From NCBI RefSeq assembly GCF_000018305.1, contig NC_009954.1, positions 2,040,001-2,072,000 on the forward strand: a stretch of 32,000 nt of DNA. The letters are read 5' to 3'. Position 1 is the stretch's first letter. Every line of letters begins with the position of its first letter. The notes below the pieces were generated by a model. It did no database searches and had not been told where the DNA came from. It saw nothing but the letters and a program-made list of their open reading frames with translations. Both the position numbers and the translations under genes were made by a program. This DNA comes from Caldivirga maquilingensis IC-167. GTDB lineage: Archaea; Thermoproteota; Thermoprotei; Thermoproteales; Thermocladiaceae. Shown here in pieces: positions 1,359-32,000 of this stretch.

Positions 1359-1450
1359 GGGCCCGTAGTCTAGCTTGGTTAGGATGCCCGCCTCACGGGT
1401 GCTGCATCTGGGATCGCGGGAGATCCCGGGTTCGAGTCCCGGCGGGCCCA
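1359..1450 (+). tRNA. tRNA-Val (anticodon CAC) with a 17-nt intron after position 37; no encoded CCA
   Basis: Cloverleaf read by eye. Acceptor GGGCCCG (1359-1365) pairs with CGGGCCC (1443-1449), with discriminator A1450. D arm GTCT/GGAT. Anticodon stem CCCGC (1387-1391) pairs with GCGGG (1416-1420). C32-U33 is followed by CAC (1394-1396) and G37. Variable loop AGATC. T arm CCGGG-TTCGAGT-CCCGG (1426-1442). The total is 92 nt, which is 75 nt plus 17 nt of intron. The locus is a GC-rich island in an AT-richer context. Confidence 0.8.
1398..1414 (+). other. tRNA intron (canonical 37/38 position) with a bulge-helix-bulge-compatible fold
   Basis: Loop nucleotides CUCA (1392-1395) can pair with intron UGGG (1409-1412) to form a 4-bp helix. 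It is flanked by 3-nt bulges C36-G37-G (5' splice site) and A-U-C38 (3' splice site). The outer helix is weak. Confidence 0.6.
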
Positions 1451-1474
1451 CTCATCATAGTGTTCTCAATAATG

Positions 1475-4153: not shown

Positions 4154-5629
4154 CTACTCCTGGCTTAATGAGGCGACAGTCTGGGATTCATTTCTCCAGG
4201 TTATGACCTCCACTGAGAAGTAAGCCAATATACCTATCGTTACCACTGTTAAGGCTGAGATTACTGCACCAATCTGGAAGGCGTACATTGATGGCACTGT
4301 AACTAAGAGCGGCACATTACGCCCCGGCAGTATACCCATTAGAACCAGTGATGTGAATGTTGACTCAAGTGAACCAGCCACCGCTGGGCCTAGGGTACCA
4401 CCCAGGTTCCTGAAGACTGAGTTCATTGCTGTTGAAACCCCCATTACCTGCGGTTCCACTGAGAAAACAAGGATATTAATGAGGGATACATTCATTGCCG
4501 CTACCCCAGCCATGGCTAATGTTGTTGATGTTATCAAAGCCCCTAAACCCAGGGGGGCCACGGCGGCGGTTATTAGGCTGAATAAGGCGGCTATACTTGC
4601 CCCAGTCATGAGCATTCTCCTAGCCCCTATCCTAGTTATTAATATGCCTGCAACTGGGGCGACTATTAACTGCGCCACAGCCATGGGGATTGCGTATAAG
4701 CCGGTATCGAATATGGATAGGTTGAAGCCAACGGGCTTAGGCTCCTCGAGGAGTATTATTAGGCTTTGTTCAAATAGGAAGAGGCCGAAGCCAGCCACCA
4801 TTGCGGCTAGATTAGCTATTAACACGTTTCTCCTAGTTAATAATGATAGGTTAATTAACGGCTGCTCCCTCCTCCTCTCTACGGCTATGAAGGCTCCTAT
4901 GAATATGAGGGCCGCTAGGAAGGTTATTATCGTGTTCGGGTTAGTCCAACCCCATATGGGTGCCTCGGTTAATCCGTAAACCACCAGGCCTAATCCAATT
5001 CCAAGTACCGCTGCCCCAGGTAAATCAACCTTAGCACTAGGGTTCCTGTACCTTGACTCCTTTATCCTAGTCACTATTAGGTACGCCACCAGCAGTACGA
5101 AGGGTATGGCTGTGTGGTATGTTGTTCTCCAACCAAAGTACTGGCTTATGTATGCGCCCAGGGGTAGTGCTATTGCCGCACCAATTCCAAAGGCTGCACT
5201 CACCAATCCCTGAGCCCTTGGTATTAATTCCCTTGGAAACTCCTCCCTGATTAGACTGAAGGCTAATGCGAACATGGTTACTCCAATACCTTGAATACCC
5301 CTGAAGGCTATTAAGTACGTGAAACTGGGTGATACACTGGTTAATGTGACTGCCACAGCGTATATTATGACCACTGCTGAGAGAACCCTCTTCTTACCGT
5401 AAATGTCACCAAGCCTACCCACTATTGGTAGTAGAACAGTACCGGAGAGTAGGTATGATGAGAGGACCCAACTAACTTGACTTGAGGTTACCCCGAACTC
5501 CCTCTCTATTTCAGTTAATGACGGTATTAACATGCCTTCTATATACATTACTATTACCGCTAATGAGGCAAGTATGACCATTGCCCTATAGGCGTACTTA
5601 AGGTCATACTCCGCATTATTAATTAGCAT
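4154..5629 (-). CDS. MFS transporter (DHA2/EmrB-like, about 14 TM)
   Basis: Many hydrophobic spans and an MFS motif-A-like GRLGDIYGKKRV. The ORF track gives GTG 5668, but a strong TATA (minus-strand GTTTATAAAG, 5651-5660) lies inside that extension. ATG 5629 (MLINNAEY...) is about 26 nt downstream of it. Confidence 0.85.
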   Translation of the reverse strand: MLINNAEYDLKYAYRAMVILASLAVIVMYIEGMLIPSLTEIEREFGVTSSQVSWVLSSYLLSGTVLLPIVGRLGDIYGKKRVLSAVVIIYAVAVTLTSVSPSFTYLIAFRGIQGIGVTMFALAFSLIREEFPRELIPRAQGLVSAAFGIGAAIALPLGAYISQYFGWRTTYHTAIPFVLLVAYLIVTRIKESRYRNPSAKVDLPGAAVLGIGLGLVVYGLTEAPIWGWTNPNTIITFLAALIFIGAFIAVERRREQPLINLSLLTRRNVLIANLAAMVAGFGLFLFEQSLIILLEEPKPVGFNLSIFDTGLYAIPMAVAQLIVAPVAGILITRIGARRMLMTGASIAALFSLITAAVAPLGLGALITSTTLAMAGVAAMNVSLINILVFSVEPQVMGVSTAMNSVFRNLGGTLGPAVAGSLESTFTSLVLMGILPGRNVPLLVTVPSMYAFQIGAVISALTVVTIGILAYFSVEVITWRNESQTVASLSQE

Positions 5630-5650
5630 AATTAGCGATATCGGTGAGGT

Positions 5651-14789: not shown

Positions 14790-15617
14790 TTAACTGGATT
14801 TAACAACCATGAATAAGCCAATGATAGTAATCACTGCACCCACTACTTCAAGGGGTGTTACACTTGATTTAATCATTAATGCACTGAAGTAGAGGGCTAG
14901 TATTGGTGTTAAGAGTAGTATTGACGATACTGTACTCGGCCTCTCACTGCTAATTGCCTTAAACCAGAGCATGAAGCCTAGTACCTGGGCATCAAGCACC
15001 ACTAGAAGAATCAGTAAAATACCCTTAATGGTTAAGGATAATGCAGGATCAATGGGTAAAGCCAATGCAGTCACAGGTATTGATAATACTGATGATGATG
15101 CATTAGCCACCAATGGGTTAACATCCCTAAACCACATTGAGTAAAGAACAGTCCCAAGACCCCACAGTAAACCAGCCATTAAACCCACAACCACCCCAAG
15201 GCTAAGGGACAGTGAACTCAATGAAGCCACAGCAACCCCCATGAAACCCAATAAAACACCCCCAATCCTCATTAAACTCAACCTACGTTTAAGCATCAAC
15301 CACTCAAAAACAGCCACAAAAAGCGGCTGCGTATATATCATTAACGCCGCTAAACCTGGATTAGGGGAGTAGAGTATTGACATGTTTATCAAAACCAGGA
15401 AAAGCCCCATGTTAAGCACCGACACTATAAGCATCCTTGAATTCAATATAAGCCTCCTAGCCAAAGGATACATGAGTAATGAGGCGGCACCCACCCTAAC
15501 CACTGAAATAACCATAGGCGAAGCATAAGCCTCAGCCATCCTTGTAAGCGGATACGCCACACCCCACACCAAGGCCAACGCAATAGAGTAAATCAAACCA
15601 CCACTTAGCCTACTCAT
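14790..15617 (-). CDS. DMT-superfamily (EamA-like) transporter
   Basis: About 10 hydrophobic helices in two EamA-like halves. The ORF track start ATG 15641 abuts a TATA-like box (15641-15650). ATG 15617 (MSRLSGG...) is about 28 nt downstream. Confidence 0.8.
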   Translation of the reverse strand: MSRLSGGLIYSIALALVWGVAYPLTRMAEAYASPMVISVVRVGAASLLMYPLARRLILNSRMLIVSVLNMGLFLVLINMSILYSPNPGLAALMIYTQPLFVAVFEWLMLKRRLSLMRIGGVLLGFMGVAVASLSSLSLSLGVVVGLMAGLLWGLGTVLYSMWFRDVNPLVANASSSVLSIPVTALALPIDPALSLTIKGILLILLVVLDAQVLGFMLWFKAISSERPSTVSSILLLTPILALYFSALMIKSSVTPLEVVGAVITIIGLFMVVKSS

Positions 15618-15640
15618 CTCCCTGCACCAAATAACCCACA

Positions 15641-15650
15641 TTTTAAACCT
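15641..15650 (-). promoter_or_regulatory. TATA-like box for the DMT transporter
   Basis: The minus strand reads AGGTTTAAAA, centred about 28 nt upstream of ATG 15617. Confidence 0.45.
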
Positions 15651-15759: not shown

Positions 15760-16006
15760 TTTGGAGCGCCAGAGTAGCGATAATATTAATACTGCATGCA
15801 ATGATCATTAGTAATGCTGATACTACGATGCTTGTTTACCTACTCACTTAGAATTTGGACTGTCAGAGTCGAGGTAGTATTAATACTATCGCTACTCTGG
15901 CGCTCCAAAACTCAATGAGGAAGAAATTCATTGCCGGAATCATACAATTAGCATTCACTGTACATTAACTTTAGTATTAATATTACCTCGACTCTGGCGC
16001 TCCAAA
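15760..16006. repeat. Array of four 34-bp units in interleaved inverted orientation (-> 60 bp -><- 63 bp <-)
   Basis: U1 (+) 15760-15793: TTTGGAGCGCCAGAG TAGCGAT AATATTAATACT. U2 (+) 15854-15887: TTTGGACTGTCAGAG TCGAGGT AGTATTAATACT. U3 (-) 15876-15909: TTTGGAGCGCCAGAG TAGCGAT AGTATTAATACT. U4 (-) 15973-16006: TTTGGAGCGCCAGAG TCGAGGT AATATTAATACT. U2 and U3 share the perfect 12-bp palindrome AGTATTAATACT (15876-15887). Confidence 0.9.
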
Positions 16007-16122
16007 ACTATGGTAACCTTGTTGATCGCGGAAGGGGCTAGGGGATTGTAATGAATTATCGTAAAAACATAGGCTGGAGCTATGCATTATATGCCTAGTT
16101 AACTCATTAATATTAAGTCTCT

Positions 16123-16164
16123 GACCCCCTCCCCGCCCTAAAGGGCGAGGGTTCCGTTGGGGTC
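16123..16164. other. GC-rich imperfect stem-loop (possible small structured RNA or transcript-end hairpin)
   Basis: GACCCC (16123-16128) pairs with GGGGTC (16159-16164). Inner stem CCCCGCCC (16131-16138) pairs with GGGCGAGGG (16143-16151, one bulged A), with a TAAA loop. GC content is far above the local background. Confidence 0.35.
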
Positions 16165-16174
16165 TCGGGTGTTA

Positions 16175-16188
16175 CCCCCCCCCCCCCC
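16175..16188. repeat. C14 homopolymer tract (G14 on the minus strand)
   Basis: 14 consecutive C, counted directly, followed by TTTGT and GGGGG (16194-16198), which can pair with the last five C. Confidence 0.95.
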
Positions 16189-16302
16189 TTTGTGGGGGCT
16201 ACTTGATTATGATCAAAAAGGAATACCCCTAAACCATGTTGATGGATTCTTGAATTCAGACTCAGTGAGCATAGCCTACTACTAATGCTTGGTTTAAAGC
16301 CT

Positions 16303-16878
16303 CTATGGTGGGGGTGGTGCTGTGAAGACGTAGTATTGTTCATTCCCCTGAAGCTCCCTTATAATCCTCTCAACGATAAGCCTCTGCACATTAATCCCAA
16401 TCCTATTCTTAAAGTCATCAAAGCTTTCAAAGGGCTTCTTAACCCTCTCCTCAAGCACCTGGTTAAGGGTCTTCTTACCAATACCCTTAAGTAATTCAAG
16501 ACTATGTAGTTTTAATGTAAGTGGCCCGGCCTTATTAATCCAGTCTATGAAGAACTTCTCCCTAACCTTAACAATCTTCTCCACCACAGCCTCAAGCTCC
16601 TGCTTAGCCTGTGGCGTTAATTCATCGTACTTAAGCCTCCTAACAATCTTATTCACTTTATCCCTAACCCCATTACCAATGTAAACCCTCTCCCCAATCT
16701 CCACAGTAGCCTCATGCTTAAGCGTAACCTCAAGAAGCGTGAAGTACTCCTCCCCAACAACCTGCAGGTAAGTGTCCCTCCTAGGGAAGCCCCTCCTAAT
16801 AATCTCAGCCTCCTTCATTAAAGCCTCCTCAGGCGGTATTATGTCTAGGACGTAGGCGTAATCCTCCTTCCTAACCAC
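16303..16878 (-). CDS. DUF655-family protein (predicted HhH nucleic-acid-binding protein)
   Basis: 191 aa. The N-terminus MVRKEDYAYVLDIIPPEE and the helix-hairpin-helix-like LELLKGIGKKTLNQVLEER are typical of DUF655. It lies 6 nt downstream of rpo4/rpoF, a conserved archaeal gene pair. GTG start. Confidence 0.8.
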   Translation of the reverse strand: MVRKEDYAYVLDIIPPEEALMKEAEIIRRGFPRRDTYLQVVGEEYFTLLEVTLKHEATVEIGERVYIGNGVRDKVNKIVRRLKYDELTPQAKQELEAVVEKIVKVREKFFIDWINKAGPLTLKLHSLELLKGIGKKTLNQVLEERVKKPFESFDDFKNRIGINVQRLIVERIIRELQGNEQYYVFTAPPPP

Positions 16879-16884
16879 ACTTAA

Positions 16885-17232
16885 TCACCCTAACTTAGCC
16901 CTATGGGAGTTAAGGAGATCCACAATCTCCTTAAGATCCTCCTCCTTAAAGGGCCTCTTCTCAACACTTATTATTGCCTGAAGCTCCTCAGGGGTTGAGG
17001 GCATAATGTTAACCACCTGAATAGCTGTAATCCTGGCTAAACCATACTTACTCGTCAACTCCTTAATAAGGGCCTCAGCATCCTCAGGCTTAACCTTACT
17101 ATACCTCCTAAGGTAATCCAGGGTAATGTTTATTACCTGTGACTCTAAGCCATACTTAGTTACAATATCCTCAAGTAATCTAAGCGCCTCCGGGTTACTC
17201 ACGTCAATGTAATCCTTAACTTTCCTAACCAC
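16885..17232 (-). CDS. rpo4: DNA-directed RNA polymerase subunit Rpo4 (RpoF, Rpb4 homologue)
   Basis: 115-aa acidic helical protein in conserved synteny with DUF655. GTG start, with TATA TTTATAAA (17253-17260) about 25 nt upstream. Confidence 0.75.
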   Translation of the reverse strand: MVRKVKDYIDVSNPEALRLLEDIVTKYGLESQVINITLDYLRRYSKVKPEDAEALIKELTSKYGLARITAIQVVNIMPSTPEELQAIISVEKRPFKEEDLKEIVDLLNSHRAKLG

Positions 17233-31643: not shown

Positions 31644-32000
31644 TTAGGTGGATTGCTTAAGTATTACCACTCCCCTAGGATCCTTAACCCTAACTGCTAA
31701 GATTTCCCATAACCTAAACTCATGGTCACCATCCCCAGCACCTAAGTACACTAAGGCTGTATCCACCCCAACGGCTACATCAATTACTGACTGATGGGTT
31801 GAGGCAAGTATTGCTTCATCATCCCTTAACTGCGGTATTACTACAACATCCTTAATAAGGGATTTAACCCTAGTTAACTCCATGACACCGGTCCTCTCAT
31901 TAACCATAAGCAACCTAGTATACCTACTAGGACTAGTGAAGAGTACGTAAGGCTCAGGCACGTAGTTTGCGTATAATGCATTAACGGCGCTTGAAACCTC
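31644..32000 (-). CDS. hypothetical protein, 5'-truncated by the window edge
   Basis: The ORF track starts at GTG 31961, but the frame stays open to nt 32000 (...EVSSAVNALYANYVPEPYV...), so the gene probably begins beyond the window. No motif recognised. Confidence 0.45.
   Translation of the reverse strand, partial: EVSSAVNALYANYVPEPYVLFTSPSRYTRLLMVNERTGVMELTRVKSLIKDVVVIPQLRDDEAILASTHQSVIDVAVGVDTALVYLGAGDGDHEFRLWEILAVRVKDPRGVVILKQST

What the first reader, a model, noticed from the sequence alone, without database searches (positions are those of the whole stretch)
15760..16006. Symmetric array of four 34-bp units with interleaved inverted pairing and matched heptamers
Seen: each unit has the form TTTGGAGCGCCAGAG + 7 nt + A[A/G]TATTAATACT. 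The layout is U1-> (60 bp) U2-><-U3 (63 bp) <-U4. U2 and U3 are fused at a perfect 12-bp palindrome, AGTATTAATACT. The variable heptamer is TAGCGAT in U1 and U3 and TCGAGGT in U2 and U4. Each unit therefore has a near-perfect inverted partner about 150 bp away (U1/U3 with 1 mismatch; U2/U4 differing in a CTGT/GCGC block), and the two pairs interleave (A+, B+, A-, B-). The outer units carry AATATTAATACT and the inner ones AGTATTAATACT. This gives three palindromic boxes centred 94 and 97 bp apart, about 9 helical turns. The array sits 120-370 bp upstream of the DMT transporter start and downstream of the rpo4-DUF655 operon. Inference: I see several possible readings and cannot choose between them. 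It could be a structured or alternatively folding RNA, since the partner-specific heptamers look like covariation. It could be two overlapping copies of a roughly 150-bp MITE with 34-bp terminal inverted repeats. It could be phased operator or recombination sites for a multimeric DNA-binding protein, such as an invertible or looped segment. No annotated feature type explains it.
Basis: seen in the sequence. Interest (0 to 1): 0.7.

Follow-up and report, generated by a model that had tools for sequence, protein, structure and literature searches.

The report
Recombining mirror-repeat array in Caldivirga
The four 34-bp units are real and belong to a previously undescribed family of intergenic mirror-image repeat arrays in the hot-spring archaeon Caldivirga; comparing strains shows that the DNA between oppositely oriented units has flipped repeatedly, so it behaves as a DNA recombination module, not a folded RNA or an ordinary jumping element.

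Summary
Observation confirmed: four 34-bp units at 15760-16006, laid out U1> U2><U3 <U4, far beyond chance. The window is Caldivirga maquilingensis. The unit (TTTGG-N6-AGAG, a variable heptamer, then a palindromic AT box) is a genus-restricted motif. Caldivirga sp. MU80 has at least 4 array loci, and 68 hot-spring metagenome stretches carry arrays with the same layout: half-site, about 95-110 bp, a 56-bp fused full site, about 95-110 bp, half-site.

New finding: at four orthologous sites the DNA between oppositely oriented units occurs in both orientations relative to conserved flanks. This is reproducible across independent assemblies and does not follow flank phylogeny. Flips were seen only where the inverted partners share an identical GC box.

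Partner units show no RNA-type covariation. There are no target-site duplications, no transposase, no Rfam, plasmid or virus match, and no orc1/cdc6 gene nearby. The matched heptamers are simply the two heptamer alleles of the C. maquilingensis clade.

Best reading: DNA-level protein-recognition and recombination sites, resembling an inverton or shufflon. Not shown: the binding protein, whether a dedicated recombinase or short-homology recombination does the flipping, and any regulatory effect. Two assemblies of the type strain show a single orientation.

The parts
15760..15793 (+). U1, outer half-site: GC box TTTGGAGCGCCAGAG + heptamer TAGCGAT + AT box AATATTAATACT
   Evidence: PWM score 47.8 bits
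15794..15853 (.). Spacer 1 (60 bp): the cassette that a U1xU3 or U1xU4 exchange would flip. Not alignable by BLAST to the spacers of other arrays.
15854..15887 (+). U2, inner unit with the divergent GC box (TTTGGACTGTCAGAG), heptamer TCGAGGT and AT box AGTATTAATACT
15876..15909 (-). U3, inner unit (GC box TTTGGAGCGCCAGAG, heptamer TAGCGAT). It shares its AT box with U2 and is followed by the intact outward motif ACTCAATGA (15910-15918).
15854..15909 (.). 56-bp fused full site (U2 and U3 head to head, 22-bp offset, common 12-bp palindrome 15876-15887). This is the constant feature of every array in the family.
   Evidence: The +/- pair at offset 22 is present in almost every array of 68 metagenome stretches and 4 MU80 loci
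15910..15972 (.). Spacer 2 (63 bp), the second cassette
15973..16006 (-). U4, outer half-site. It is a mosaic: GC box as in U1/U3, heptamer as in U2, AT box as in U1.

Best explanation
The array is one copy of a Caldivirga-restricted family of intergenic 'mirror arrays' that act at the DNA level.

Anatomy: each unit is a bipartite recognition motif. It has a conserved TTTGG, a variable hexamer, a conserved AGAG, a variable heptamer, and a palindromic AT box. Two units fused head to head through one shared AT box make a 56-bp full site. This full site is flanked on each side, about 60-75 bp away, by a half-site pointing inward.

Mechanism: oppositely oriented units that carry the same GC box exchange strands. 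The DNA between them flips. Because the array mirrors itself, the flip regenerates the same > >< < layout.

Shown here:
- the family and its architecture;
- repeated, precise inversions between inverted units at four orthologous sites;
- junction intervals lying in the outer part of the unit (before position 13 in one event, before position 21 in two);
- unit gain and loss between direct units;
- absence of RNA-type covariation, target-site duplications and transposase genes.

Inferred:
- that a trans-encoded sequence-specific protein binds the units;
- that the exchange is enzyme-directed (site-specific, with the variable hexamer acting as a homology-checked crossover region) rather than general short-homology recombination;
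- that flipping affects neighbouring genes.

Prediction for the window: U1, U3 and U4 share TTTGGAGCGCCAGAG, so the expected isoforms are a U1xU4 flip (the whole interior) and a U1xU3 flip (spacer 1 plus U2).
For: Family and architecture:
- A genome scan found arrays at 4 contigs of Caldivirga sp. MU80.
- A metagenome scan found 68 stretches. A PWM scan gave 360 hits representing 127 distinct units, with 0 hits in shuffled DNA, and a recurrent pattern of + (about 107 bp) + (22 bp) - (about 107 bp) -.

Inversions:
- Alignment A1 and the segment decomposition show X-[a..b]-Y in 7 loci and X-[rc b..rc a]-Y in 4 loci.
- A U1xU3-type flip is seen at site an/at (2 loci vs 5) and at site as/af (1 vs 3).
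- The complex array shows an inversion of about 600 bp.
- Plain BLAST shows the flanks on one strand and the interior on the other. L070 vs L064: flanks 97.2% identical, interior 100% identical and inverted. L026 vs L067: interior 98.4% identical.
- Each state is seen in independent samples and assemblers.
- The identical tract between partner units is only 14-20 bp, shorter than the assembly k-mer sizes I know to be in common use (not checked for these assemblies). An assembler artefact is therefore unlikely.

Recurrence: orientation does not follow flank phylogeny. L041 (state B) is 99.3% identical to L018 (state A) on one flank but about 96% to the other B loci.

Partner rule: flips were seen only where inverted units share identical positions 1-12 to 1-20. 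None were seen at the two sites that lack such pairs.

Mosaic units: the GC-box block and the heptamer block are almost unlinked. U4 of the window is itself a mosaic.

Long residence: one array site keeps orthologous neighbours across Caldivirga clades.
Against: - No recombinase or other DNA-binding candidate is encoded next to the array in the 32-kb window.
- Two independent read-level assemblies of the type strain show only the reference orientation.
- Both orientations were never seen on identical flanks, so the flips may be evolutionary events rather than a working switch.
- The dependence on 14-20 bp or more of identity fits general short-homology recombination just as well.
- Arrays sit between convergent genes at 2 of 7 sites.
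- The window's spacers contain no TTTWAAA-type promoter box like those upstream of the window's genes, and the EamA gene has its own box at 15640-15646. A promoter-switch role is therefore unsupported.
- Among close strains, units are no more conserved than spacers.
- The array is absent upstream of EamA orthologues and downstream of DUF655 in other Caldivirga.
Confidence: 0.5

Rival explanations
1. Selfish proliferating repeat (MITE-like or REP/BIME-like). The roughly 107-bp module of unit plus spacer is copied to new intergenic sites by a trans-acting enzyme, and the inversions are by-products of having inverted copies side by side.
For: - The family is multi-copy and dispersed.
- Spacers at different sites fall into loosely homologous families, for example ak vs aj, so whole modules were copied.
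- The number of modules per array varies from 2 to 12.
- The array is absent at the orthologous EamA and DUF655 positions in other Caldivirga.
- Many contigs end inside arrays.
Against: - There are only about 5 loci per genome.
- No target-site duplications flank the outer units.
- No transposase or RAYT-like gene lies in or next to any array. The 2.7-kb segment between two unit groups encodes a ClpP/NfeD-like protease.
- Single units are not palindromes, unlike REPs.
- Sites are stable across strains, and one is stable across clades.
- There are no hits in plasmid, phage or viral collections.
Confidence: 0.2
2. Architectural or regulatory binding-site array. The units bind a multimeric DNA-binding protein, with a full site plus two half-sites and looping or wrapping. 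Possible roles are an operator, an insulator or roadblock, a replication origin, or a two-way fork barrier. The inversions would be incidental.
For: - Conservation is motif-like: positions are fixed across all units regardless of which array they belong to.
- The symmetric full-site and half-site layout presents the same face to anything arriving from either side.
- From my own knowledge: the 2+2 inverted layout resembles the four ORB elements of Aeropyrum pernix oriC1 and the opposed IRI/IRII terminators of Bacillus subtilis. About 5 sites per genome is of the order of origin or terminus numbers in multi-origin Crenarchaeota; four origins are reported for Pyrobaculum calidifontis (PMC4010727).
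Against: - No orc1/cdc6 or whiP gene is in the window or among the nearest neighbours of the MU80 arrays.
- The AT-only stretch is 12-16 bp, not a 70-100 bp unwinding element.
- Spacing varies from 86 to 161 bp.
- The neighbouring genes are unrelated to one another.
- The site is not conserved between species at EamA.
Confidence: 0.2
3. Structured or alternatively folding RNA, in which the unit pairs are helices.
For: The region folds into a long nested hairpin at -92.7 kcal/mol, z = -9.2. Most U2/U4 mismatches would be G-U pairs on the + strand.
Against: - Rfam gives nothing at the gathering score, and only chance-level hits overlap the array.
- There is no partner-specific similarity within arrays.
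- Spacers are not complementary to each other.
- The U1/U3 and U2/U4 pairings would cross each other.
- The same interior occurs on both strands relative to neighbouring genes.
- Hyperthermophile RNAs are usually GC-rich (my own knowledge), whereas the spacers are AT-rich.
Confidence: 0.04

Closest known systems
Bacterial invertons and shufflons (Bacteroides invertible promoters under a global recombinase; the R64 shufflon with Rci and asymmetric sfx sites). The descriptions are from my own knowledge; PMC10028968 for the state of knowledge in Archaea.
   Same: Short conserved inverted repeats bound short DNA segments. Both orientations are found. Several loci in one genome share the same repeat. 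Multiple sites in one array allow alternative flips. The sites are asymmetric.
   Different: - No recombinase has been identified.
- No promoter or coding end lies inside the flipped cassettes.
- Mixed orientation within a clonal population has not been shown.
- The fused 56-bp full site has no counterpart.
- The host is a hyperthermophilic crenarchaeon. PMC10028968 reports only 12 putative archaeal invertons from 42 long-read datasets and calls them minimally investigated.
REP/BIME/REPIN elements of bacteria (from my own knowledge)
   Same: Species-specific extragenic repeats of about 35 bp. They cluster in alternating orientation with characteristic linkers, often lie 3' of genes, and are recombinogenic.
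   Different: Single units here are not hairpin-forming palindromes. Spacing is about 100 bp rather than a few bp. There are tens rather than hundreds of units per genome. No RAYT-type gene was seen.
MITEs
   Same: About 250 bp, non-coding, bounded by 34-bp terminal inverted repeats, and present at several loci.
   Different: No target-site duplications, no related autonomous element, and low copy number. Units are conserved while the interior is barely conserved. There is an internal head-to-head unit pair.
Archaeal oriC with inverted ORB elements (reviewed in PMC4010727)
   Same: Inverted arrays of a roughly 35-bp initiator-type repeat around an AT-rich centre, in an intergenic position, at several sites per chromosome.
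   Different: No adjacent orc1/cdc6 gene. No extended unwinding element. As far as I recall the ORB consensus, the unit does not resemble it. Arrays flip in situ.

Membership tests
MITE | Terminal inverted repeats | tested here: met
   U1/U4 are 91% complementary
MITE | Target-site duplication flanking the element | tested here: not met
   The flanks of the outer units at the window, ag/ah, an/at and as/af sites (printed) and at am/ar and au/aw show no direct repeat
MITE | Related autonomous element with the same ends and a transposase | tested here: not met
   No transposase domain among the genes adjacent to arrays. Viral, plasmid and phage searches were empty. Whole genomes could not be scanned for this.
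MITE | Presence/absence polymorphism with a precise empty site | tested here: inconclusive
   EamA orthologues lack units, but their upstream DNA cannot be aligned to the window
Inverton / shufflon | Segment bounded by inverted repeats and found in both orientations | tested here: met
   Four orthologous sites show both orientations across strains. Not observed for the window's own locus.
Inverton / shufflon | Mixed orientations within one clonal population | not testable with these tools
   Only assemblies are available. Two type-strain assemblies show one orientation.
Inverton / shufflon | Dedicated site-specific recombinase | tested here: not met
   None in the 32-kb window or next to the MU80 arrays. 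A trans-encoded enzyme is not excluded.
Inverton / shufflon | Promoter or coding segment inside the invertible DNA | tested here: not met
   The window spacers lack the TTTWAAA-type box seen about 30 nt upstream of the window's genes. No conserved ORF.
Structured RNA | Match to a described family | tested here: not met
   No Rfam hit over the array at the gathering score; only E = 0.03-0.8 noise
Structured RNA | Compensatory variation specific to paired partners | tested here: not met
   Within-array identity 0.806 vs between-array 0.823; inverted partners 0.816 vs direct 0.806
Archaeal oriC / ORB array | Adjacent initiator gene (orc1/cdc6 or whiP) | tested here: not met
   Pfam scans of the window's ORFs of 90 aa or more outside overlapping frames (all but the 105-aa ORF at 31644-31961), and of the nearest MU80 neighbours
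Archaeal oriC / ORB array | Origin activity | not testable with these tools
   Needs marker-frequency or 2D-gel data
REP/BIME | Each unit is an imperfect palindrome | tested here: not met
   Only the AT box is palindromic
REP/BIME | Clusters of units in alternating orientation in extragenic DNA | tested here: met

The most novel reading that the evidence does not exclude
A genome-wide, multi-locus DNA-inversion network (shufflon/inverton-like) in a hyperthermophilic crenarchaeon. A trans-encoded recombinase would recognise the bipartite 34-bp units. The variable hexamer between TTTGG and AGAG would serve as the homology-checked crossover region that decides which units can pair. Each mirror array would then be a small reversible switch, and the window's copy would toggle by U1xU3 and U1xU4 exchange.
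Probability: 0.25. Interest if true: 0.8.

Novelty: new variant of a known kind. Interest (0 to 1): 0.62.

Why it matters
- Programmed or recurrent small DNA inversions are well known in bacteria but barely documented in Archaea (PMC10028968).
- This family offers defined sites, predicted isoforms and a testable partner rule (identical GC box) in organisms that grow above 80 °C.
- If an enzyme drives the flips, it would be a new archaeal site-specific recombination system acting at several chromosomal loci.
- If general recombination drives them, the arrays are natural reporters of short-homology recombination in Thermoproteales.
- In either case an unknown sequence-specific DNA-binding protein is implied.
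- The arrays also mark local structural variation and, in this window, a synteny breakpoint.

Tried and rejected
1. **RNA family.** Rfam at the gathering score and at permissive thresholds, on the window and on 12 related loci, gave nothing over the arrays.
2. **Heptamer covariation.** Rejected. The heptamers are two common alleles in this clade, and partners are not specifically similar.
3. **Autonomous transposon between separated unit groups.** The 2.7-kb segment encodes a ClpP/NfeD-like protease.
4. **Coiled-coil DUF8196 (PF26618) proteins as the cognate factor.** They lie next to 2 array sites. They are absent from the other sites and from the window, and homologues in Vulcanisaeta and in another contig have no arrays nearby.
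5. **Origin of replication.** No initiator gene is nearby, and the literature search gave nothing for Caldivirga.
6. **Invertible promoter.** No promoter-like box in the window's spacers.
7. **Recombination between arrays at different loci.** The odd flanks (bc, bf, be, bo) turned out to be local indels of 250-1000 bp.
8. **Empty-site search at the EamA and DUF655 orthologues.** The intergenic DNA is too diverged to align.
9. **Mixed orientation in type-strain read assemblies.** Not seen.
10. **Copy number in the window's own genome.** It could not be counted, because the genome scan did not return that genome.

Full report
**1.

Reading the window and the repeat finder give four 34-bp units:
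- U1 15760-15793 (+)
- U2 15854-15887 (+)
- U3 15876-15909 (-)
- U4 15973-16006 (-)

Each unit has the form TTTGGAGCGCCAGAG (CTGT replaces GCGC in U2), then a heptamer, then A[A/G]TATTAATACT. U2 and U3 overlap by the perfect palindrome AGTATTAATACT. The spacers are 60 and 63 bp.

Complementarity is 97% for U1/U3 and 89% for U2/U4. The nested alternatives are 91% (U1/U4) and 81% (U2/U3).

The GC-box 15-mer with up to 3 mismatches occurs four times in 32 kb, all of them here, against 0.49 expected. None of 100 shuffles reached four.

The array lies 119 bp upstream of an EamA/DMT gene (14790-15641, -). It lies downstream of DUF655 (16303-16878, -) and an Rpb4-like gene (16885-17232, -).

**2. Organism and synteny**

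The DUF655 protein is 100% identical to that of Caldivirga maquilingensis.

In relatives whose DUF655 is 96%, 88%, 84% and 78% identical, the gene is followed directly by a GH106 gene, another gene or ProRS. No unit is present in any of these loci.

EamA orthologues (79% and 72% identical) sit in other contexts and also lack units, even at a 10-bit PWM threshold.

The first roughly 97 bp after DUF655 (window 16207-16299) still match the relatives. The array therefore lies just beyond a synteny breakpoint specific to this lineage.

The window's block from TldD to the Na/Ca exchanger is collinear with a Yellowstone-type contig (L071). That contig carries an array on the other side of the block.

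**3. The unit defines a family**

A degenerate pattern matching all four units found four separate contigs of Caldivirga sp. MU80 among 185,579 species genomes. The only other hits were two single chance matches in bacteria.

Each MU80 locus carries an array rather than a lone unit.

A looser pattern found 68 stretches in hot-spring metagenomes. In viral contigs it found only two lone matches, which scored 19-20 bits in the later PWM scan.

An iterated PWM gave 360 hits, representing 127 distinct units, and none in shuffled sequence.

The recurrent module is: + unit, about 107-110 bp, + unit, 22 bp, - unit, about 107 bp, - unit. Some arrays have one to several extra outer units. One complex locus has 12 units over 1.1 kb. 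Spacing ranges from 86 to 161 bp, so strict helical phasing is not a family property.

Flank clustering gives about five sites in the Yellowstone-type populations, matching MU80's loci. There are several more in samples that hold the closest relatives of C. maquilingensis.

**4. Anatomy of the unit**

Positions 1-5 (TTTGG), 9 (G), 12-15 (AGAG), 20 (G), 22 (T) and the AT box are near-invariant. Positions 6-8, 10-11 (the hexamer) and 16-21 (the heptamer) vary among a small set of alleles.

Part of this conservation was imposed by the search patterns. G9, G20 and T22 were already constant in the units returned by the first scan; G9 and T22 were then fixed in the second pattern, G20 never was. Units that were found only as neighbours also fit the motif.

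The consensus AT box AATATTAATATT is a palindrome. The head-to-head pair is therefore a 56-bp full site, and the outer units are half-sites. An outward extension (consensus TCATTGAGT) precedes many units.

**5. The interior flips**

At one orthologous site (flanks X and Y, spacers a and b), seven loci read X-U-a-U.U'-b-U'-Y. Four loci read X-U-rc(b)-U.U'-rc(a)-U'-Y (alignment A1; decomposition).

- At a three-unit site the single spacer flips and the fused pair moves from one side to the other. The form an > ak >< at occurs in 2 loci and an >< -ak < at in 5. This is what a U1xU3 exchange predicts.
- A third site shows the same flip, 1 locus against 3.
- In the complex array about 600 bp is inverted between two GCTGTC units.

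Plain BLAST shows the pattern without any model: the flanks align on one strand and the interior on the other. In L070 vs L064 the flanks are 97.2% identical over 3.4 kb and the interior is 100% identical and inverted. In L026 vs L067 the interior is 98.4% identical.

Each state recurs in independent samples and assemblers. The tract that is identical between recombining partners is only 14-20 bp. That is below the assembly k-mer sizes I know to be in common use (not checked for these assemblies), so an inverted-repeat assembly ambiguity is unlikely.

Orientation does not follow flank relatedness, so the inversions recurred. Unit numbers also differ between strains, which is consistent with exchange between direct units.

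**6. Where the exchange happens**

In one event the junction lies before unit position 13, and in two events before position 21. Whole heptamers and AT boxes travel with the interior.

Inversions were seen only where inverted units share identical positions 1-12 to 1-20. The two sites without such pairs showed none among 9 and 6 sampled loci, apart from one rearranged variant, L054.

The GC-box block and the heptamer block are almost unlinked across units. Mosaic units exist, including L041's U3 and the window's U4.

This fits either a site-specific system whose crossover region is the variable hexamer, or general short-homology recombination. I cannot separate the two.

**7. What it is not**

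*RNA.* Rfam gives nothing over the array. Partner units are not specifically similar. The interleaved heptamer match is peculiar to this copy: all units of the C. maquilingensis clade use only TCGAGGT or TAGCGAT. The same interior occurs on either strand relative to neighbouring genes. The strong predicted fold simply restates the inverted repeats.

*Classical MITE.* There are no target-site duplications and no transposase. Copy number is low. One site has orthologous neighbours in both Caldivirga clades (AbrB-like gene at 79% aa identity). There are no plasmid or phage matches.

*Origin of replication.* No initiator gene is nearby and there is no extended AT-rich element.

*Invertible promoter.* The window's genes carry TTTWAAA-type boxes about 30 nt upstream of their starts. 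The spacers have none, and EamA has its own box at 15640-15646, which fits the 275-aa gene model.

Array contexts are tandem at 4 sites, divergent at 1 and convergent at 2.

**8. Limits**

- The window's own genome was not returned by the scan, so its copy number is unknown.
- Two read-level assemblies of the type strain carry the reference orientation only.
- Among close strains, units are not more conserved than spacers. Their persistence between species, where the spacers can no longer be aligned, is what suggests constraint on the fixed positions.
- No binding protein has been identified.

**9. Verdict**

This is a real, previously undescribed, genus-restricted family of DNA-level mirror-repeat arrays that recombine in situ. 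The closest analogues are inverton and shufflon sites. The mechanism and function are inferred, not shown.

Chromosomal invertons in Archaea are described as minimally investigated (PMC10028968). Full-text searches found nothing on such arrays in Caldivirga or Thermoproteales.

Noticed in passing
window 16108-16279 (-): A GC-rich island between the array and DUF655 matches the Rfam HgcC family over the full model at 38.8 bits (gathering score 50, E about 1e-7). Its 75-nt core (16122-16198) recurs with helix-preserving changes near arrays at three other sites (L039, L035/L049, L061; weaker in L042 and L016) and nowhere else in the fetched DNA. It is probably a small structured RNA gene.
   Followed up: partly
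window 16175-16188: A run of 14 C inside that GC-rich element. One independent read assembly of the same strain has 13 C, so this is either an unstable homopolymer or a sequencing artefact.
   Followed up: no
window 16207-16299 and the whole region 8.5-16.3 kb: Synteny breakpoint. Only the first roughly 97 bp after DUF655 match the closest relatives, which continue with a GH106 gene. The acylphosphatase and Na/Ca-exchanger pair is inverted relative to them. EamA and the 136-aa gene come from a different neighbourhood in relatives.
   Followed up: partly
window 15618-15646: The EamA/DMT gene probably starts 8 codons downstream of the longest ORF. The 275-aa model is NCBI's alternative and matches the orthologue length. 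TTTAAAA at 15640-15646 then sits where a promoter box for a leaderless mRNA would be expected.
   Followed up: partly
L010 653-1627; L013 5784-6719; L070 3580-4617; L032 3400-4563: Paralogous coiled-coil proteins with a C-terminal DUF8196 (PF26618) domain lie next to two array sites. The domain carries a D...ExK-like motif. Orthologues differ in the number of 14-aa LWQEVKALRENQEK-type repeats (324, 345 and 387 aa). Homologues occur in Thermofilum, Vulcanisaeta and Pyrobaculum.
   Followed up: partly
L092 2409-3309: In Vulcanisaeta sp. JCM 14467 the DUF8196 gene lies beside a 14-repeat CRISPR array (repeat GAAGATTTCAATAGAATATTGAAAG) and a weak integrase-like ORF.
   Followed up: no
L077 5046-5202 vs 5474-5631: One metagenome contig has the same 158-bp flank, inverted, on both sides of its array. 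This is either a real inverted duplication at the array or a chimeric contig.
   Followed up: partly
window 1359-1451 (+): A tRNA-Val(CAC) gene of 93 nt, which implies an intron.
   Followed up: no
L017, L023, L025, L034, L036, L043, L051, L061: Many metagenome contigs end inside or at the edge of an array, and L034 does so at both ends. The arrays therefore break assemblies, whether through shared repeats or through structural heterogeneity in the populations.
   Followed up: no
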